DNA of 64,000 bases from a virus. The stretch spans positions 56,615 through 120,614 of IMG/VR virus record IMGVR_UViG_3300020048_000048; one strand, 5' to 3'. The position numbers and the translations under genes are program-made. Below are positions 30,593 to 54,457 of the stretch, one piece after another; positions within the stretch are counted from its first letter, which is position 1; each line of letters opens with the position of its first letter. A model generated the notes under the pieces. It had not been told where the DNA came from, made no database searches, and worked only from the letters and a program-made list of their open reading frames with translations.

Positions 30593-30686
30593 AGTTTTTT
30601 TGAATTATTCCGTTAAGTATAGTATGAGTTGCTGAGGGTGGCTTGTTATTACAAGGTCTCAGCACTTTGTTTTTATAGGAGTTTTT

Positions 30687-31679
30687 ATGGAAAAGTCAAA
30701 ACTCGATCTTATAACTAAAATATTATTTACAAAGCAAAGAGTTTTTCAATTCCTTAAAACAGAAAAAGCTTATTTGAGCTTTTCTGGAGGAAGAGATTCT
30801 ACTATTTTGAGTCATATTTTAAGAACAAATTTTAAAGAAACTTATCCAGAAAAATTCCAAGATGTTAGTGAAGGATCTATATTGAATGAAGTTTTTGAAA
30901 TACCTCATGTGTTTTTAAATACAGGTGTTGAGTGGGCAAATATTGTTCACTTTGTAAGAAGCTTGAGTAAAAAAATAGAACTTATAGAAGTTACTCCTAA
31001 AATAACATTCTTTGAAATTATAAAAAAACATGGATACCCTGTTATCTCAAAAGAAATTTCTCAATATATCCATGAAGCAAAGGTCACTAATTCTAAAAAA
31101 CTTTTACTCAAAAGACTTGATGGTGAGAAAAAAGGAAATTATGTGTCTGGAAAAATTTCAGATGTTCATAGTGCTTGGTTGAGAGAAGATGCACCTTTAA
31201 TTGGTGCTAAATGTTGTCATTATTTGAAAAAAGATCCAGTTCATCGTTATGAAAAAGAAACTGGTAGGCGACCAATTTTAGCAATTATGGCTGACGAAAG
31301 TCGTTTAAGACAGCAAACAGCTAAAAATGGATGTATTTTTGAAAAAGCAAGTGGTCTTGTGTGCAATCCAATGATTTTCTGGACACATCAAGATATAGTG
31401 GATTATGTTGAAATGTTTCAACCTGAACTTTGTGATCTTTATACAAAGCATGGATTTGAACGAACTGGTTGTGTCGGTTGTCTTTATGGATGTTCTACTA
31501 AAAAACAGGCTGATGAGAAATTTAAATTCATGAGAGAAAATAGACCAAAACAATATCAAATTTATTTAAACAACGGACTTCAGGAAATTTTAAACTTCTT
31601 AGAAGAAAGCGATAAAATGTCAAAAGAAGAGAAAAAACAAATAAAAGAAAGGATGAAAAATGAACGTTGTTCCGATTAA
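30687..31679 (+). CDS. PAPS-reductase-family (PP-loop, Fe-S) protein
   Basis: SFSGGRDS, NTG, CCHYLKK and RTGCVGC motifs. Confidence 0.85.
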   Translation: MEKSKLDLITKILFTKQRVFQFLKTEKAYLSFSGGRDSTILSHILRTNFKETYPEKFQDVSEGSILNEVFEIPHVFLNTGVEWANIVHFVRSLSKKIELIEVTPKITFFEIIKKHGYPVISKEISQYIHEAKVTNSKKLLLKRLDGEKKGNYVSGKISDVHSAWLREDAPLIGAKCCHYLKKDPVHRYEKETGRRPILAIMADESRLRQQTAKNGCIFEKASGLVCNPMIFWTHQDIVDYVEMFQPELCDLYTKHGFERTGCVGCLYGCSTKKQADEKFKFMRENRPKQYQIYLNNGLQEILNFLEESDKMSKEEKKQIKERMKNERCSD

Positions 31680-38683: not shown

Positions 38684-39727
38684 ATGATAGAAATTGTTAA
38701 TGTTGCGTCTACGGCAGATATCCCTAATAGTGATAACCTTTTATTGACCCATGTAAAAGGCATTCCCTGCGTTGTTTCTAAGAAAGATGGGTGTGGAGAT
38801 TACGTTTATTTTCCGTTAGACTGCGTGCTTTCTGAAAAACTATACAAATTCATATTCCAAAAAGACGACTACACGGAAAAGAAAGCTTGTGTTAAAGCGA
38901 AAAAGCTAAGGGGAGTTTTTTCAGAAGGGCTATTAATTCCAGTACACAAAGTCGAGGAATGTTGTTCAGATATGAACATAAAAGACCTTGATAAGAGTTT
39001 GGGATGTAAAAAATACCAACCTCCAGAAGATTTGGAAGAAATGCAAAAACCTCAAGGGAAGAAAAAGCCTTGGTGGAAAAAAATCTTAAGATGGTTTGTT
39101 AAGGAAGAATATTTTCCAGAATACACTGATACTAAACGTATTGAAAAAGTGGAAATCCCAGAAAAGGAGTTTGTAGTTACAATTAAGCTTCATGGAACTT
39201 CTGTAAGGTATATGCTTCAAAAGAAAACAATTTTTAATTTCTGGAAAAGGATTTTTAAAGTTGGCTCAAGGAGGGTTTGTAATCCTAAACAACATTTGTA
39301 TTTTACTTTTTCAAAACAAGTTGAAAGTTTTTGTTTAAATATTGAAAAGAAATTAGAATGCAATGGAGTTATGGTTTTTGGAGAAATTGTTGGTCCAAAA
39401 GTTCAAGGAGCTTACAGTTATACAAAAACTCCAGAACTTTTTGTTTATGGGATTTATATCAAGGGTGGATTTTTAGGATATTGGGGCATGGAAAATCTTT
39501 GCAAAGAGTTTGGAATGAATTGTGTACCACATATTGACGCATTAACGATAAGTAAGGATTCACCTTTTGAAAGATGGTGTAATAGAGATTTTTACCCAAA
39601 TAAAATTGACAAAAACGTGCCATGTAGAGAGGGTGTTGTTTTACACCTTCCTGAAGATGAAATATGTAAGCCAGAAAAAAGAACAATTTTCAAATATGTT
39701 TCAGAAGCTTTTAGGCTTCAAAAATAG
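38684..39727 (+). CDS. RNA ligase (DRB0094/Rnl2-like, with N-terminal OB module)
   Basis: KLRGVFSEGL, motif I KLHGTS, FGEIVG, EGVVL and FKYVS. Confidence 0.85.
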   Translation: MIEIVNVASTADIPNSDNLLLTHVKGIPCVVSKKDGCGDYVYFPLDCVLSEKLYKFIFQKDDYTEKKACVKAKKLRGVFSEGLLIPVHKVEECCSDMNIKDLDKSLGCKKYQPPEDLEEMQKPQGKKKPWWKKILRWFVKEEYFPEYTDTKRIEKVEIPEKEFVVTIKLHGTSVRYMLQKKTIFNFWKRIFKVGSRRVCNPKQHLYFTFSKQVESFCLNIEKKLECNGVMVFGEIVGPKVQGAYSYTKTPELFVYGIYIKGGFLGYWGMENLCKEFGMNCVPHIDALTISKDSPFERWCNRDFYPNKIDKNVPCREGVVLHLPEDEICKPEKRTIFKYVSEAFRLQK

Positions 39728-41078: not shown

Positions 41079-42236
41079 ATGAAAGCGCACAAAATAAGAA
41101 TTTTCCCTAATAAAGAACAAGAAGCTTATTTAATAAAAGCTTGTGGAACCTCCAGATTTGCTTATAACTGGGCGTTAAGCAAATGGAAAGAACAGTACGA
41201 AGCAGGGTTAAAACCAAATGTAAACCAACTTAATAAAGAACTTAATTCTGTTAAAAAAGAGCGGTTCCCATGGATGTTGGAAGTGACTAAATGTGCCCCA
41301 CAAAGGGCTATAAAAGATTTAGGAACGGCTTTTGACAGATTCTTCAAGAAACAAAACGGTTATCCTAAATTTAAGAAGAAAGGACAAAAGGACAGTTTTT
41401 ACATTTCTAACGACCAGTGTGAAATTATTGGTAAGGAACTATTTGTTCCTAAGTTAAAGATGCCTATTAATTGTTCAGAAGAACTTCGTTTTACTGGTAA
41501 GAAAATGAGTTATGTAATTAGTAGGGATGTTGACAGATGGTATGTTTCAATTACGGTAGAAACTGACCATAAACTTCAAAGAAAAGAATCTCGTGGTACG
41601 GTCGGCATCGACTTGGGCATTAAAACACTGGCAACTTTAAGTGATGGAGTTATTTTTGAAACGAAGAAGTTCTATCACAAAGCAGAAAAAAAGTTAAAAA
41701 AATTACAAAGAAGGTTAAGTAAGAAACAAAAAGGGTCAGCTAATAGAGCAAAAGCCAAGCTTAAGTTAGCGAAACAACACCGAAAGATTAGATTTGCTCG
41801 CAAAGATTACCTACATCAAATTACGACATTTGTTGTTACTCATTATAACAAGGTAGTTATTGAAGACTTAAATGTGAAGGGAATGGTTAAAAATCACAAA
41901 CTCGCCAAAGCCATTAGTAATATGGGATTCGGAACTTTCCGATCCATGCTTGAAACAAAGGCTAAAGACTGTGATTGTGAAGTGATTGTTGCCGATAGAT
42001 TCTTTGCTTCTTCAAAGCTTTGCAGTAAGTGCGGTAATAAAAAAGTAGATTTAAAACTTTCCGATAGGATTTATAAGTGTGAGTGTTGCGGTTTGGAAAT
42101 AGACCGAGACCTTAACGCATCGATAAATCTAAGGGAATTAGGGTCTCGCCGACCCGATGAGCCTGTGGACTCGACAGAGGACCTTAGCAATAAGGCAGTT
42201 GGGAATGAAGCAGGAACTGGAGTTAACTTATGTTAA
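41079..42236 (+). CDS. tnpB: TnpB RNA-guided endonuclease (IS200/IS605/IS607 family)
   Basis: N-terminal HTH (KIRIFP...RFAYNWAL), RuvC motifs GIDLG, IEDL and DRDLNA, zinc ribbon CSKC/CECC. Confidence 0.93.
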   Translation: MKAHKIRIFPNKEQEAYLIKACGTSRFAYNWALSKWKEQYEAGLKPNVNQLNKELNSVKKERFPWMLEVTKCAPQRAIKDLGTAFDRFFKKQNGYPKFKKKGQKDSFYISNDQCEIIGKELFVPKLKMPINCSEELRFTGKKMSYVISRDVDRWYVSITVETDHKLQRKESRGTVGIDLGIKTLATLSDGVIFETKKFYHKAEKKLKKLQRRLSKKQKGSANRAKAKLKLAKQHRKIRFARKDYLHQITTFVVTHYNKVVIEDLNVKGMVKNHKLAKAISNMGFGTFRSMLETKAKDCDCEVIVADRFFASSKLCSKCGNKKVDLKLSDRIYKCECCGLEIDRDLNASINLRELGSRRPDEPVDSTEDLSNKAVGNEAGTGVNLC

Positions 42237-49731: not shown

Positions 49732-51602
49732 AAATGCCCTTGGTTGAGTTTTTAAATAATTTGTGAATCTTTGTTCAAATGCGTTTGTAAAATTCAATGT
49801 AGGTCAATTTTGAATCATCTGTGGGTATTTTTTTAAATAAAAATAGTTCTAAAGTTTTTAAAAAAAATGCCGTTAAGTAAAGTAGGAGGTTTTTTTATGA
49901 TTGATGTTGAAAAATACGAAGCAAATAAAGAATTTATTTCACCAAACGTCTTTAAGATTGAAAGATTTAGTGAAAGAATTTTTGTGTACGATAAAAAAGT
50001 TCACATTGAAATATTGCCAGATGGTTTTTTGTCTTTTAAAAAAGGTGGGAAATCATTCAACCCTCAATTGGTGACAATGTTAACTATATCTATAGCATTA
50101 AGACATTTTTTACAACTACAGGTTGATTTAGATGAGGAACTTATTGAAAAAATTCACATCATGAAAGGATGTCAATAATGGAATGTAAACTTGTGTTAGA
50201 ATTTTGTGAAAGTAATTGGCGTTGCTCTTGTGATTCTTTTGACTTTATGGGCGAACCTAATTATTCCTTTGGAGACACCCCAGAAGAAGCTTTAGAAAAC
50301 TTCAGCAAATACGTTTTTGATTTAGAAATTTTAACAAAAAGATCAAGAGCTTTAAATTTAGGGAGTTATAAAATGGAGGTTTATCGTTTAAAAAATTTAT
50401 TAGAAGATCTTAACTCTTCTGAAGAATCTAAATATCTTAACATTGAGGCACTTTGGGATTTAAAAATAGAGATCGAAGGTTACATTGAAAGGTATGAAAA
50501 TGTAATTAAGCTTGGAAATTTAGGAAACATTAAGTTTTCAATTGAAACAACTATAGGAGAGCTTAAAGAATTAGTGGCAACAATTAAACAAACAAGAGAC
50601 AATTTGAAAAATAATTTCATACAGGAGGTAGGAAAATGAACGATGAAGTAATTCGCTCCATTTTTAAACTTAATTGTAATGGTGAACTTTTTGGTAAATG
50701 GCATGATGGTCAATTTTGTCAAAATGGCGATTTTATTAAAGTTGAAATGTGGAAAGGTTTTTATAAAAGTCTTCTTGTTGAAGGTGAAGAAGTTTTCTTT
50801 CCAAGGATTGTTTATTTGGCAAAAAACCCTTATTCTTAAGGAGTTAGTATGAATCACAATGAACTTTTAAGCTTAATCAAAGCATCTCAAAACTGGGAGT
50901 TGTCTTTTGATGAAACTCTTAATAGTTACATGGGAGATGAAAATAAAGCTAATGTTACGGAATTGTTAAAAAACACTGATTTTCCTTATCAGGAAAAAGA
51001 ATTTTATTATAATTTTTATTATTTCCCAGTAGAGGAATTTTATATCTGCCTTAAAGCGTTCGTTCCTTATGAGGGGGAAATTATGTTTACGGACATTTTT
51101 CTAACTGAAAGAAAATGCACTTTAAGTTATTGTTATGCAAGGAAAAGACCATGATAAAAATTTCAGGAGGGACACGGTTTCAGTATGTGAAAAATGTAAA
51201 CAGGAGCGTTTTTATAACTGGCTTCAATCACTGTTTACAAATAAAAAATGAAGCGATTGACGCAATTACTACCTTTTTAGAGAAAAATTGCTTTAACGAA
51301 AACGTAAAAGAAGTTTTTGGTGATTATATTTTTGAGATAAAAAACTATGAACTTATTATTCAAGAAGGTTGTGTTTCCAAATACAAGCTAAAAGAGCAAC
51401 AAGTGATTCACTTTTTGTATTTTTTAAAGGAGGTTTGCGATGACGATAGCGATAATGTGGGATAATGTCCCAAACGCAAAATTTTTTGTAAAGTGCTTAA
51501 ATGATGAACAAAAAAAGATATTCAACAATTATTACAATTTTAGAAAGTTTTTTTAACAAAAGCGCTAAAGGTTTTTTAAAAAGTTCCGTTAAGTATAATA
51601 TG

Positions 51603-51719
51603 ACCAAGATCGTCTAAGGGCTTAGGACAGCTTTTACTGTGAAGTGCAAGTTCAATTCTTGCTTAAGAGTAGGAACTCATCACGACAAGCAAATGGAAGT
51701 TCAAATCTTCCTCTTGGTA
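51603..51719 (+). ncRNA. tRNA-like RNA with an expanded anticodon arm
   Basis: Acceptor ACCAAGA/TCTTGGT plus discriminator A, D arm GTCT/GGAC, T arm GGAAG-TTCAAAT-CTTCC. A 53-nt insert with a second T-arm sits in the anticodon position. Own promoter at 51566. Confidence 0.75.
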
Positions 51720-51729
51720 TTTTTTAACA

Positions 51730-51766
51730 GTCGCTAACTTCTTGTTATAAGTTGGTGACATTTTTT
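51730..51766 (+). terminator. Intrinsic terminator-like hairpin after the tRNA-like RNA
   Basis: GTCGCTAACTT/AAGTTGGTGAC stem (with G-U pairs) followed by ATTTTTT. Confidence 0.6.
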
Positions 51767-52496
51767 CAAGGAGAATGTTATGGAAATGACTTTTGATTTT
51801 ATTACAAAAACGTCTCAAGTTCCTCATTTTTCTGTGTTGGCAAAAATTCGTATGGAAGACGTGGAGGATTTTACAGAAAGGTCTTTCGCACTTATCGAAG
51901 ACGGTACGGGATTGTATGTGTTCATGAACGCAATGTTTACCAAAGACGGATGGCTTGTTTCCAAACGTATTGAAGGTGCTGATTGTAGAATTATTTGGAC
52001 GAAAGCTGGACCAAGAGTTTCTGCCTTGTTGAACAGGGGGCTAAGATGAAAGTGTTCCATTACTTTGGAAGATGTTATATTTTATTAACGCCACAAGGTG
52101 AAGAATACGCCATGGTAAGGAAAGTTATTGACTGGTGGATTATTAAAAAAGATGAAGAAGTTTGGCATAGGGTCGGACCTAAGGTAGTTGAATTTTTAGA
52201 AAAAGAAATTTCTAAAGAAACTGAAGTTGAAAACATCTCTTTAAGTGAGGACAATATTCTCAATTACTTAAAAATGGGGCTGTTATGAATATTAATGTGT
52301 CGTAATCGTCATAATATTGACCTACAAGGCGTGTTAAATATTTATTAAAGGCATAACACCTAATTTGTATAAAAAATCATTGTAAGTCAAAATTAAACGT
52401 TTTTTTTAATACAAATTTTTAAACGGAATTTAAAAAAACTCCTAAAGCTTTTTAAAAAAGTGCCGATAAGTTGTATATACAAACAAGGAGGCACTT

Positions 52497-53552
52497 ATGA
52501 AAAGAATTACAATAAAAAGTTTAAAAGACCTTTTAAAATCCCTTGAAAAATTTGATAAAGAAATTTACACACTTGAAGTAAGTGCTCCTTACTTTTATAC
52601 AAAAGAAACTTTTGAAAAAATGGAAAAAGGAGTTAAGCTCCTTTACTGGGAAGAAATTGAAGTTGTGGATGTTGAGTTAAAAATTAAAAAAATTGAAGGT
52701 TTTGAATACCTTGGTAAATTTGAACAAAAGGACGGAATAGAAGTCGCCTCTTTTGAAAACACAGTTCCTCAAATACAAGACAAATACCACTGCGACCATT
52801 GCAATACGAACCGCCAAAGAAAGACCGTTTACATCTTTAAAAAAGAAGACGGCACTTTTTTCCGTATCGCAAGCTCTTGTGTTGTGAAATATTTTGGAAT
52901 ACAAGGGGAAAAAATCATAAGCGCAATGCATGTGCACGACGCATTTTTAAAATCCATTGAAGCTAATGATGATTTTGAAAACTGTGTCGTAAAAACATTT
53001 CGCTTAGAGGACATTATTGCAACTGGACTTTACTATAACATGAGCTTCACAAATGCGAAAGAAGACATGGGATTCACTTACAGAAACATCCAAAGTGCAG
53101 AAACACGTCAAGAAGAGGTAAACATGGTTAAGGCTTTTGTTGAATCTCTTGACCAATTTTCTTCAGACTGGGCGTTCAATTTAAAACAAATTATAAACAA
53201 TGAAAGAATTACTGAAAAACATATAGGGTTAGTTTGGAGTGCTTCAGTTGCCTTCTTAAAAAATCAAGTTAAGCAAAAATTGTTAAATAAGAAAGATGGA
53301 TTTGTGGGTAAAGTAGGTGATAAAATGGAAATGGAACTAACATTTGTGTCAATGGTTAGTTTTGAGAGTAATTTTGGAATGACAAGGATTTATAAGTTTT
53401 TAACAAAAGAAGGTCAAGTAATTGTTTGGAAAACCAGCACTTTAGTAAATTTTGACAAACATTCACCTGTAAAGGCAAAATTTACAGTAAAGGAGCACAG
53501 TGTGTATAAAGAAGAACAACAAACTTTAGTCTTGAGATTGAAGATCCAGTAA
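52497..53552 (+). CDS. Hypothetical phage protein (CxxC plus possible C-terminal OB fold)
   Basis: CDHCNTNRQR...ASSC and FVGKVGDK...VWKT...TVKEH motifs; near-consensus TAAAGCTT-N11-GCCGATAA promoter. Confidence 0.6.
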   Translation: MKRITIKSLKDLLKSLEKFDKEIYTLEVSAPYFYTKETFEKMEKGVKLLYWEEIEVVDVELKIKKIEGFEYLGKFEQKDGIEVASFENTVPQIQDKYHCDHCNTNRQRKTVYIFKKEDGTFFRIASSCVVKYFGIQGEKIISAMHVHDAFLKSIEANDDFENCVVKTFRLEDIIATGLYYNMSFTNAKEDMGFTYRNIQSAETRQEEVNMVKAFVESLDQFSSDWAFNLKQIINNERITEKHIGLVWSASVAFLKNQVKQKLLNKKDGFVGKVGDKMEMELTFVSMVSFESNFGMTRIYKFLTKEGQVIVWKTSTLVNFDKHSPVKAKFTVKEHSVYKEEQQTLVLRLKIQ

Positions 53553-54066: not shown

Positions 54067-54457
54067 CTAAAGTTTTTTTAAATTGCTCCGATAAGTATAA
54101 TAGGAGGTGATTTATGAATGAAAAAACATATTGGAATTATTTGGACAAAGTTATTGCTCACGAAAGTGTAGAGCATCCAATATTATCCGTGGTTGTTATT
54201 GGTAACAAGTTGCAATTTAACTGCCCATTTGGTAACTCTTCACGTTATTTTTCATTAAGACGACGATACCAAGAAGAAATAGGTGAGCCAATCGATTTAC
54301 CTCTTGAAATAAGGGGAATTTACAATTTTCATTTACATGGGAAAGTGGAAAAGTCAAAAATTGAACAAGAGTTTAAAAAATTAGGCTACACGGTAGAATT
54401 TTTGTAAAAAGTCCTAAAGTTTTTTTAAATTGCTCCGATAAGTATAATAGGAGGTGA
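54067..54457 (+). repeat. Two identical 44-bp promoter+RBS cassettes (54067-54110, 54414-54457)
   Basis: CTAAAGTTTTTTTAAATTGCTCCGATAAGTATAATAGGAGGTGA occurs twice. Confidence 0.9.

What the first reader, a model, noticed from the sequence alone, without database searches (positions are those of the whole stretch)
51566..51766. tRNA-like RNA whose anticodon loop is replaced by a second T-arm ('double-elbow' RNA)
Seen: the outer cloverleaf is canonical (7-bp acceptor 51603-51609/51712-51718, D arm, T arm GGAAG-TTCAAAT-CTTCC, no encoded CCA). The 4-bp anticodon stem GCTT/AAGC encloses 53 nt that fold as TGTGA/TCACG, then a perfect second T-arm GCAAG-TTCAATT-CTTGC (51646-51662), then a hairpin GAGT-AGGA-ACTC. 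The insert thus looks like a permuted T-arm/D-arm pair. The RNA has its own sigma-28-like promoter and a terminator-like hairpin, so it appears to be a dedicated transcript. Inference: a non-decoding tRNA mimic, such as a decoy for tRNA-targeting defences or an elbow-binding scaffold, or a tRNA with an unusual intron. An RNA ligase is encoded at 38684.
Basis: partly seen in the sequence, partly recalled or inferred. Interest (0 to 1): 0.75.

Follow-up and report, generated by a model that had tools for sequence, protein, structure and literature searches.

The report
Phage tRNA-Glu look-alike with two T-arms
An uncultured lake phage carries its own small gene for an RNA that has the body of a glutamate tRNA but, where the anticodon should be, a second tRNA-style T-arm module, a design also seen in phage T5's long-known but unexplained "RNA2", so it cannot read codons and probably works by imitating tRNA shape.

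Summary

- **Above chance:** only 3 such T-arm hairpins occur in 120.6 kb (both strands). Two lie 49 nt apart in this element; shuffles give 0.4 per genome.
- **Own transcript:** one copy of a 16-member sigma-28-like phage promoter lies upstream, and a terminator lies downstream.
- **Not a decoder:** ARAGORN (default) and Rfam find no tRNA, and no 7-nt anticodon loop remains.
- **New here:** the outer body is glutamate-type. Its D arm and variable loop are identical to those of a bacterial tRNA-Glu.
- **Same layout as phage T5 RNA2** ("tRNA-like stable RNA with unknown functions"). Direct model tests of membership were inconclusive or negative.
- **Bridge:** L318, an element in a 359-kb phage contig, matches a model of this RNA (47.9 bits) and a model of the T5-type inner module (34.7 bits). 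It keeps 31 of 34 pairs, 17 through changes on both sides.

**Verdict:** a real, non-decoding tRNA mimic and a new Glu-bodied variant of the RNA2-type design. Its target is unknown, and expression is untested. The scan had noted similar "double-elbow" RNAs on other DNA.

The parts
51566..51599 (+). Phage promoter of sigma-28 type: TAAAGGTT, 11 nt, TCCGTTAA, then GTATAAT
   Evidence: The 17-mer core occurs 16 times in the genome with at most 3 mismatches, and blastn finds 26 matches. In most other copies AGGAGG and a start codon follow at once, so transcription should start near 51600. The sigma-28 consensus itself is recalled, not taken from a call.
51603..51719 (+). 117-nt tRNA-like RNA gene (whole)
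   Evidence: Found by ARAGORN in intron mode at exactly these ends. It is the only tRNA-like gene in the 120.6 kb.
51603..51609 (+). Acceptor stem, 5' strand (pairs with 51712-51718)
   Evidence: 7 of 7 Watson-Crick pairs.
51612..51628 (+). D arm of glutamate type: U11-A24, U13-G22, GG in the loop
   Evidence: The 19-mer TCGTCTAAGGGCTTAGGAC is identical to that of a bacterial tRNA-Glu(CTC) gene, L281.
51630..51633 (+). Anticodon-type stem, 5' strand (pairs with 51687-51690)
   Evidence: 4 of 4 pairs. All four are changed on both sides yet still paired in L318.
51638..51642 (+). Inner helix P, 5' strand (pairs with 51680-51684)
   Evidence: 5 pairs, also 5 of 5 in L318 with 2 changes on both sides. 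Not significant on its own.
51646..51662 (+). Inner (second) T arm GCAAG-TTCAATT-CTTGC
   Evidence: The matching arm covaries in T5-type RNA2 relatives.
51667..51678 (+). Small hairpin GAGT-AGGA-ACTC with GG in its loop
   Evidence: The A51668G change in lake relatives keeps the pair as G.U. L318 keeps 3 of 4 pairs.
51691..51694 (+). 4-nt variable loop AAAT (A46 present, no residue 47)
   Evidence: Identical to the variable loop of the tRNA-Glu gene in L281.
51695..51711 (+). Outer T arm GGAAG-TTCAAAT-CTTCC
51730..51766 (+). Terminator-like hairpin (11 pairs) followed by a T run
   Evidence: Two changes in lake relatives (C51732T, T51756C) both keep pairing.

Best explanation
This is a real phage gene for a small RNA that cannot decode. 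It has the core of a glutamate tRNA (acceptor stem, Glu-type D arm, 4-nt variable loop, T arm). The anticodon loop is replaced by a three-way module: a short helix, a second canonical T arm, and a small hairpin with GG in its loop.

**Inferred steps**
- It is transcribed from its own sigma-28-type phage promoter, starting about 3 nt before the acceptor stem.
- It is trimmed and given CCA by host tRNA enzymes.
- It then acts by shape. It binds one or more proteins that read the tRNA body, most likely one that reads the glutamate-specific core such as GluRS, while the inner module offers a second elbow-like surface.

**Shown:** the anatomy, the above-chance T arms, the promoter and terminator, the Glu-type body, and conservation of the fold in a distant relative.

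**Inferred:** expression, processing, the partner and the benefit to the phage.
For: - **Two T arms:** two perfect T arms lie 49 nt apart, against 0.4 per genome in shuffles.
- **Own signals:** it has one of the phage's 16 promoter copies and a terminator.
- **Stems:** all 34 proposed pairs form.
- **No decoding loop:** ARAGORN by default and Rfam find no tRNA.
- **Glu-type body:** the D arm and variable loop are identical to those of a bacterial tRNA-Glu. All four 'augmented D helix' features listed in passages of PMC9976931 are present.
- **Recurring body:** a pattern search gave 35 viral hits, 26 of them distinct short Glu-type bodies of 63-69 nt. Of these, 19 have an intact acceptor stem and T arm, and ARAGORN calls only 4 of the 26.
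- **Same layout in T5 RNA2:** it has two T arms. Across T5-type relatives the inner T stem covaries, with 5 different paired stems and an invariant loop.
- **Bridge through L318 (2741-2858):** a model built from this element alone scores it 47.9 bits, E 2.6e-10, full length. A model of the T5-type inner module scores it 34.7 bits, E 2.9e-8.
- **Covariation with L318:** 58 of 117 aligned columns are identical. L318 keeps 31 of 34 pairs, 17 of them changed on both sides.
- **Alignment A6:** 92.7% of cells are paired, against 34-47% when partners are slid. This alignment was fitted to the model.
- **Lake relatives:** in strains about 95% identical, the changes shown inside the RNA are one deleted D-loop base and A51668G, which keeps a G.U pair.
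Against: - No RNA data exist for this phage, so expression and processing are not shown.
- The model of the T5-type inner module does not hit this element at E up to 10. The conserved AATGGTT...CGTAA motif of that family is absent.
- The full T5 RNA2 model scores the element 30.2 bits, but ordinary tRNAs reach 32 bits with the same model.
- The model built from this element scores some ordinary tRNAs (up to 40.7 bits) above the T5-type RNA2 elements.
- An alternative long hairpin for the inner part is slightly more stable, -12.7 against -12.0 kcal/mol.
- In L318 the transferred fold scores -18.9 against an MFE of -28.1.
- Only one close structural relative (L318) and one looser one (L317) were found.
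- 72 differences in the lake relatives were not listed by the tool, so conservation cannot be quantified.
- The acceptor stem (A1-U72, C2-G71) lacks the weak GluRS determinants G1-C72 and U2-A71. The strong anticodon determinants are absent, so productive charging by GluRS is doubtful.
- No GluRS, Ro60 or CCA-adding enzyme gene was found in the 120 kb held, which is 73% of the estimated genome.
Confidence: 0.65

Rival explanations
1. It is a decaying or recombinant tRNA-Glu pseudogene. A phage tRNA-Glu gene lost its anticodon arm to an insertion or a partial T-arm duplication, and it is transcribed only because a promoter happens to sit in front.
For: - The body is clearly derived from tRNA-Glu.
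- The inner and outer T arms match at 14 of 17 positions, as a duplication would give.
- GCTT occurs twice (51630 and 51661), like a duplication junction.
- The phage has no other tRNA gene in the 120 kb held.
- Helix P is not above chance on its own.
Against: - All 34 pairs are intact.
- The difference between the two T stems is compensatory (C-G against G-C).
- L318, only 50% identical, keeps the same segment lengths to within 1 nt and 31 of 34 pairs.
- The changes shown in lake relatives are neutral to the structure.
- The same design recurs in T5-like and T4-like phages, with covariation in the inner T stem.
Confidence: 0.12
2. It is a cis-acting leader. The tRNA-like fold and the following terminator form a processing or attenuation signal for the downstream genes (51780 onward), not a trans-acting RNA.
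For: - No other promoter copy lies between 51600 and the next one near 54085. Genes 51780-53552 may therefore depend on read-through of the terminator at 51730-51766.
- tRNA-like structures are known cleavage points for RNase P (recalled).
Against: - Relatives of the design (T5 RNA2, L318) sit inside tRNA clusters and not in front of protein genes.
- T5 RNA2 is annotated as a stable RNA.
- I saw no convincing antiterminator pairing.
Confidence: 0.1
3. It is an intron-bearing tRNA that is spliced, perhaps with the help of the phage RNA ligase, into a decoding tRNA.
For: - ARAGORN in intron mode proposes tRNA-Ala(TGC) with a 22-nt intron.
- An RNA ligase gene lies at 38684.
Against: - That solution needs a roughly 30-nt variable arm, a stem with G.U and T at position 37.
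- The body is Glu-type, not Ala-type, and there is no G3-U70.
- By my reading of the sequence, there is no bulge-helix-bulge motif.
- The insert is too short for group I, and no Rfam intron match was found.
- Removing the whole insert leaves no loop at all.
Confidence: 0.03

Closest known systems
Phage T5 RNA2 (gene rna2, NC_005859 32959-33083, annotated 'tRNA-like stable RNA with unknown functions') and its relatives in T5-like and Acinetobacter T4-like phages
   Same: - tRNA-like outer frame with no anticodon loop.
- 4-bp anticodon-type stem, then 12 nt, then a canonical inner T arm.
- Then 24-26 nt with a GG-containing segment.
- Then a 4-5-nt variable loop, the outer T arm and the acceptor stem.
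- Linked to this element through L318.
   Different: - T5 RNA2 has a different (non-Glu) D arm and a 5-nt variable loop.
- Its conserved AATGGTT...CGTAA motif is absent here.
- The inner-module model does not hit this element.
- T5 RNA2 lies in a tRNA cluster, whereas this gene stands alone with its own promoter.
- T5 RNA2 matches 436 phage records. This element matches none.
Bacterial and phage tRNA-Glu (Rfam RF00005)
   Same: - D arm and variable loop identical to an Acidobacteria tRNA-Glu(CTC) gene.
- D arm near-identical to a T5-like phage tRNA-Glu(UUC).
- U11-A24, U13-G22, A46 and no residue 47.
   Different: - No anticodon arm.
- Acceptor stem is A1-U72, C2-G71 and not G1-C72, U2-A71.
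- No RF00005 match even at E 10.
Short anticodon-less tRNA-Glu-body RNAs of phages (26 distinct sequences found here in IMG/VR)
   Same: Same Glu-type D arm, variable loop of AAAT type, intact acceptor stem and T arm, no decoding loop.
   Different: Those carry only a short capped hairpin (12-19 nt) in place of the anticodon arm. This one carries a 53-nt module with a second T arm.
YrlA (tRNA-like Y RNA, Rfam RF02553; PMC4201824, seen as search listing and start of abstract only)
   Same: A non-decoding RNA that imitates a tRNA body.
   Different: - No Rfam match.
- No Ro60/TROVE gene in the 120 kb held.
- The ends form an acceptor stem, not a Ro-binding stem.
- YrlA has one T arm (recalled).
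mascRNA (passage in PMC9976931)
   Same: A tRNA-like RNA without a conserved anticodon loop that is not aminoacylated. It binds a synthetase (GlnRS) and stabilises it.
   Different: Mammalian, cut out of a long non-coding RNA, with a single cloverleaf. It is offered only as a functional precedent.

Membership tests
Canonical decoding tRNA (Rfam RF00005) | 7-bp acceptor stem, D arm with A14 and G18G19, T arm with a TTCRANN loop and a G53-C61 pair | tested here: met
   Read directly. ARAGORN in intron mode uses these arms.
Canonical decoding tRNA (Rfam RF00005) | 5-bp anticodon stem with a 7-nt loop (U33, purine 37) | tested here: not met
   A 4-bp stem encloses 53 nt and no 7-nt loop can be drawn.
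Canonical decoding tRNA (Rfam RF00005) | Scores above the Rfam gathering threshold, or is called by ARAGORN with default settings | tested here: not met
   No match at gathering or at E up to 10. ARAGORN by default finds 0 genes.
tRNA-Glu body | Augmented D helix: U11-A24, U13-G22 with A46, no residue 47 (PMC9976931 passages) | tested here: met
   T51613-A51627, T51615-G51625, A51693, and a 4-nt variable loop. The D arm and variable loop are identical to a tRNA-Glu(CTC) gene.
tRNA-Glu body | Acceptor stem determinants G1-C72 and U2-A71; anticodon determinants U34 U35 C36 A37 | tested here: not met
   The acceptor stem is A1-U72, C2-G71, and the anticodon is absent.
T5 RNA2-type double-T-arm RNA | Two canonical T arms within one acceptor-closed frame, the inner one about 12 nt after a short anticodon-type stem | tested here: met
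   12 nt before the inner T arm in both, then 24 nt here against 26 nt in T5.
T5 RNA2-type double-T-arm RNA | Full-length match to a covariance model of T5-like RNA2 that stands above ordinary tRNAs | tested here: inconclusive
   R1 scores it 30.2 bits, E 2.5e-6, full length. Ordinary tRNAs score up to 32 bits with R1.
T5 RNA2-type double-T-arm RNA | Match to a model of the inner module, including the conserved AATGGTT...CGTAA segment | tested here: not met
   R2 gives no hit on the element at E up to 10, and the motif is absent.
T5 RNA2-type double-T-arm RNA | Linked through an intermediate sequence | tested here: met
   L318:2741-2858 scores 47.9 bits with R3, the model of this element, and 34.7 bits with R2, the T5-type inner module.
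YrlA / bacterial Y RNA | Rfam match; Ro60 (TROVE) gene in the genome | tested here: not met
   No Rfam match. No PF05731 match in the 120 kb held, although the record is only 73% complete.
Intron-bearing tRNA | A group I core or bulge-helix-bulge motif, and a canonical anticodon arm after excision | tested here: not met
   The insert is 53 nt, with no Rfam intron match. By my reading, the loop next to the stem is a 4x2 internal loop and not two 3-nt bulges. ARAGORN's spliced form is non-canonical.
tmRNA | tRNA-like ends plus a tag reading frame | tested here: not met
   ARAGORN with tmRNA search on finds none.

The most novel reading that the evidence does not exclude
Phages carry a portable 'second elbow' module (helix, T arm, GG element) that can be grafted onto different tRNA bodies. 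Here and in a 359-kb phage it sits on a glutamate-type body; in T5 it sits on another. On the glutamate body it makes a two-surface mimic that captures a host factor reading the tRNA-Glu core, for example GluRS or a defence protein that attacks or senses tRNA-Glu. It would then act as a decoy or a switch during infection.
Probability: 0.15. Interest if true: 0.8.

Novelty: new variant of a known kind. Interest (0 to 1): 0.58.

Why it matters
Phage tRNA genes are now linked to escape from tRNA-cleaving defences, but RNAs that keep the tRNA body and discard the anticodon have no assigned role. This element ties three things together:
- a glutamate-specific core;
- a second T-arm module;
- T5 RNA2, annotated in the T5 genome record as a stable RNA of unknown function and never explained.

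T5 grows on E. coli, so the class can be tested directly by deleting rna2, by pull-downs and by structure probing. If the module proves to be a general protein-binding device, it would be a new way for viruses to exploit tRNA shape. It would also be a natural counterpart of the engineered 'tRNA scaffold' (recalled, not searched here).

Tried and rejected
**Searches for close relatives of this element**
- blastn of 51300-52000 against 50,697 phage records found no match.
- The exact outer T arm plus acceptor strand (25-mer) was absent from viral contigs.
- The neighbouring 351-aa protein and DnaE gave no relative by the search for related loci.
- The 351-aa protein has only 9 distant homologues, at 24-40% identity.
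- The promoter motif gave 7 single hits in viral contigs and no phage with many copies.

**Sequencing runs**
- No RNA holder was listed.
- Contigs from three other lake or freshwater studies carry strains about 95% identical. The tool did not list 72 of the differences, so I make no claim about the rate of change.

**Two-T-loop pattern search**
- Most hits were coding repeats.
- L009/L105, L012 and L018 have two or three T arms, but none of my three models hit those elements.

**Other attempts**
- RNAalifold on the MAFFT alignment of T5-type RNA2 did not recover the inner T arm, because one row was misaligned by 1 nt. I used the T-arm listing instead.
- MAFFT alone misaligns this element against L318, so I used the model-based alignment A6. 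That alignment leans towards the model's structure.

**Literature**
- Five full-text searches found no paper describing a tRNA-like RNA with a second T arm, a nested tRNA, or T5 RNA2.
- PMC10690425: passages only. It mentions tRNA-like candidates in IMG/VR without describing this design. Its supplementary list could hold such RNAs, but supplements were closed.
- PMC13056530: passages only, nothing relevant.
- PMC9976931: passages only.
- The older T5 stable-RNA literature is recalled only, not seen.

**Rejected readings**
- Intron-bearing tRNA, YrlA and tmRNA: see the membership tests.
- A link to the RNA ligase at 38684: no evidence either way.
Full report
**What is there**

The outer parts are:
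- a 7-bp Watson-Crick acceptor stem (ACCAAGA / TCTTGGT);
- U8;
- a D arm GTCT-AAGGGCTTA-GGAC;
- a 4-bp stem GCTT / AAGC;
- a 4-nt variable loop AAAT;
- a T arm GGAAG-TTCAAAT-CTTCC;
- discriminator A, with no encoded CCA.

The 4-bp stem encloses 53 nt holding TGTGA / TCACG, a perfect second T arm GCAAG-TTCAATT-CTTGC, and the hairpin GAGT-AGGA-ACTC.

The window is part of a 120.6-kb IMG/VR virus record, estimated 73% complete, with 32% G+C. ARAGORN finds no tRNA or tmRNA by default. In intron mode it reports exactly this stretch, and nothing else in the whole record. Rfam has no match at gathering thresholds over the window, and none to any tRNA-related family at E up to 10 around the element.

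**Is it more than chance?**

The genome has 22 GTTCRANNC sites on both strands. Only three are flanked by a 5/5 stem, and two of those are the arms of this element, 49 nt apart. Block shuffles give 0.4 such hairpins per genome, with a maximum of 2.

The other two inner helices are not convincing on their own. After shuffling the flanks of the inner T arm, a helix of 5 bp or more appears in 73% of trials, and a 4-bp hairpin with GG in its loop in 3.8%.

The inner part can also form one long hairpin, -12.7 against -12.0. Energy therefore does not decide the inner fold.

**Transcription signals**

The sequence upstream is TAAAGGTT, 11 nt, TCCGTTAA, then GTATAAT. Its 17-mer core occurs 16 times in the genome with at most 3 mismatches, and blastn finds 26 matches. 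In most other copies a Shine-Dalgarno sequence and a start codon follow immediately, which places the transcript start near 51600, about 3 nt before the acceptor stem.

The motif fits the sigma-28 consensus as I recall it. A sigma-70-region-2-like ORF lies elsewhere in the record, just below Pfam's cut-off. A terminator-like hairpin with a T run follows at 51730-51766.

**The body is glutamate-type**

A covariance model built from this element alone (R3) scored highest, among ordinary tRNAs, a T5-like phage tRNA-Glu(UUC) with an almost identical D arm.

The exact 19-mer TCGTCTAAGGGCTTAGGAC occurs twice in 185,579 species genomes. One copy is the D arm of a tRNA-Glu(CTC) gene whose variable loop is also AAAT.

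[quoted passage not shown] All four are present here. The weak acceptor determinants (G1-C72, U2-A71) and the strong anticodon determinants are not.

A pattern for a Glu-type D arm followed too soon by a T loop found 35 viral stretches, 26 of them distinct. Of the 26, 19 have an intact acceptor stem and T arm. They are 63-69 nt long, too short to hold an anticodon arm, and ARAGORN calls only 4 of the 26. Phages therefore repeatedly keep the glutamate tRNA body without a decoding loop.

**The second T arm and T5 RNA2**

Earlier notes of this scan pointed to phage T5 RNA2, and I checked this. The T5 record annotates rna2 as a 'tRNA-like stable RNA with unknown functions'.

Its sequence has two T arms and the same order of parts: a 4-bp stem, 12 nt, the inner T arm, 26 nt (24 here), a 5-nt variable loop (4 here), the outer T arm and the acceptor stem. 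It matches 436 phage records, mostly T5-like, with weak matches in Acinetobacter T4-like phages. Across these the inner T stem takes five different paired forms around an invariant loop. No Rfam family covers it.

**Formal tests of membership gave mixed results**

| Model | Built from | Result on the target | Control |
|---|---|---|---|
| R1 | 5 T5-like RNA2 sequences | This element: full length, 30.2 bits | Ordinary tRNAs reach 32 bits, so inconclusive |
| R2 | The inner module of 7 diverse RNA2-type members | This element: no hit at E up to 10 | The family's AATGGTT...CGTAA motif is absent here |
| R3 | This element alone | 4 of the 7 distinct RNA2-type elements searched hit full length at 21-29 bits | Some ordinary tRNAs score higher, up to 40.7 bits |

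**A bridging sequence**

A last pattern (Glu-type D arm end, early T loop, second T loop) found two viral stretches.

L318:2741-2858 lies among 17 tRNA genes of a 359-kb contig.
- R3 scores it 47.9 bits (E 2.6e-10), full length with one 1-nt insertion.
- R2 scores its inner part 34.7 bits (E 2.9e-8).

In the inner module 12 of 14 pairs are kept, 6 through double changes.

On the model-fitted alignment A6, 92.7% of cells pair, against 34-47% with partners slid. That alignment leans towards the structure and includes two ordinary tRNAs.

As I read L318's sequence, it cannot form the alternative long hairpin. Against this, L318's transferred fold scores -18.9 kcal/mol against an MFE of -28.1. L317 is a looser second example at 27.3 bits.

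**Close relatives**

Contigs from three other lake or freshwater studies hold strains about 95% identical. Inside the RNA, the differences shown are one deleted D-loop base and A51668G, which turns A-U into G.U. Two changes in the terminator also keep pairing. The tool did not list 72 further differences, so I do not claim reduced divergence.

**How it most likely works**

The anatomy, the signals, the Glu-type body and the conserved fold are shown. The rest is inferred:
- the RNA is made from its own promoter;
- it is trimmed by RNase P and 3' nucleases and given CCA by the host, since no CCA-adding enzyme was found in the record;
- it then binds proteins that read the tRNA body.

Because the part that phages keep is the glutamate-specific core, a reader of that core, such as GluRS, is my first candidate. 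mascRNA, which binds and stabilises GlnRS without being charged, is a precedent for this kind of action. The phage record holds no GluRS and no Ro60 gene. A decoy role against a defence that attacks tRNA is possible but untested.

**Rivals**
- **Pseudogene:** argued against by intact pairing, by the compensatory difference between the two T stems, and by L318.
- **Cis-acting leader for the downstream genes:** possible, because the next promoter copy lies only near 54085. However, the relatives sit in tRNA clusters.
- **Intron-bearing tRNA:** rejected.

**Novelty and score**

The design is not in Rfam, and five literature searches found nothing on it. T5 RNA2 is, however, already annotated in the T5 genome record as a stable RNA, and this scan had already noted similar 'double-elbow' and tRNA-Glu-body RNAs on other DNA.

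I class the element as a new variant of a known but unexplained kind: a glutamate-type body with an RNA2-type layout, its own inner sequence, and a stand-alone promoter. Interest is moderate to high, because the class is testable in T5.

Noticed in passing
window 28394, 30607, 41047, 42289, 43650, 45017, 48247, 51583, 54085, 54432, 54919, 61848(-), 62728(-), plus 3 copies upstream of the window: A phage promoter family of sigma-28 type (cTAAAGTTTTTT..N..TTCCGTTAAGTATAAT), with 16 copies at 3 or fewer mismatches. Most are followed at once by AGGAGG and a start codon.
   Followed up: partly
window 30624-30690; 62728(-) and 61848(-) downstream regions: A few promoter copies are followed not by a ribosome site but by a hairpin or non-coding-looking sequence (e.g. 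GTTGCTGAG...CTCAGCAC then a T run at about 30630). These may be further small RNAs or attenuators.
   Followed up: no
G000:C1:5324-5470 (-), outside the window: A 267-aa open frame with a sigma-70 region 2 match just below Pfam's cut-off (22.7 against 24 bits). It is a candidate phage sigma factor for the promoter family.
   Followed up: no
L009:660-790 (+), identical in L105: Another stand-alone RNA with two T arms, an 8-bp closing stem and its own sigma-70-like promoter, in a 44-kb viral contig. None of my three models matches it, so it is a separate design.
   Followed up: partly
L102:1740-1905, L054, L138, L061, L075, L098, L087 (metagenome contigs): 'A tRNA inside a tRNA'. An outer acceptor stem, D arm and T arm are joined by a long G+C-rich stem whose tip is a complete canonical tRNA: Thr (CGT, GGT or TGT) or Gly (TCC). 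For L102, RNAfold's MFE is the nested double cloverleaf. One search for 'nested tRNA' wording found no description.
   Followed up: partly
L018:11517-11669 (-); L012:262-450 (-): Between tRNA-Ile and tRNA-Pro of a 158-kb viral contig lies an element with three T-arm-like hairpins closed by an 11-bp stem. It shares a GGRAGACAAATAG-plus-hairpin motif with L012.
   Followed up: no
L282-L316 (viral contigs): 26 distinct short (63-69 nt) RNAs with a tRNA-Glu-type D arm, acceptor stem and T arm, but only a 12-19-nt capped hairpin where the anticodon arm and variable loop should be. ARAGORN of the 26.
   Followed up: partly
L280:6375-6450 (+): In an Oscillospiraceae MAG contig, a tRNA-Glu 5' half (acceptor strand and identical D arm) runs straight into a terminator-like hairpin, just after a tRNA 3' end. 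It may be a truncated copy or an attachment-site relic.
   Followed up: no
L317:6152-6209 (-): An Rfam DUF3800-IX sRNA match (46.4 bits) lies about 320 nt upstream of the double-T-arm element of that viral contig, on the same strand.
   Followed up: no
window 51557: One lake strain (run X5) carries a 20-nt insertion just upstream of the promoter. Contig ends pile up at 51565/51566 and 51597-51603, because the promoter is repeated in other contexts.
   Followed up: no
window 41079-42236 and 38684-39727: A TnpB-type gene (OrfB_IS605 plus Cas12f-like TNB domain) and an RNA ligase (PF09414 plus PHA02142 OB domain) were confirmed by Pfam.
   Followed up: partly
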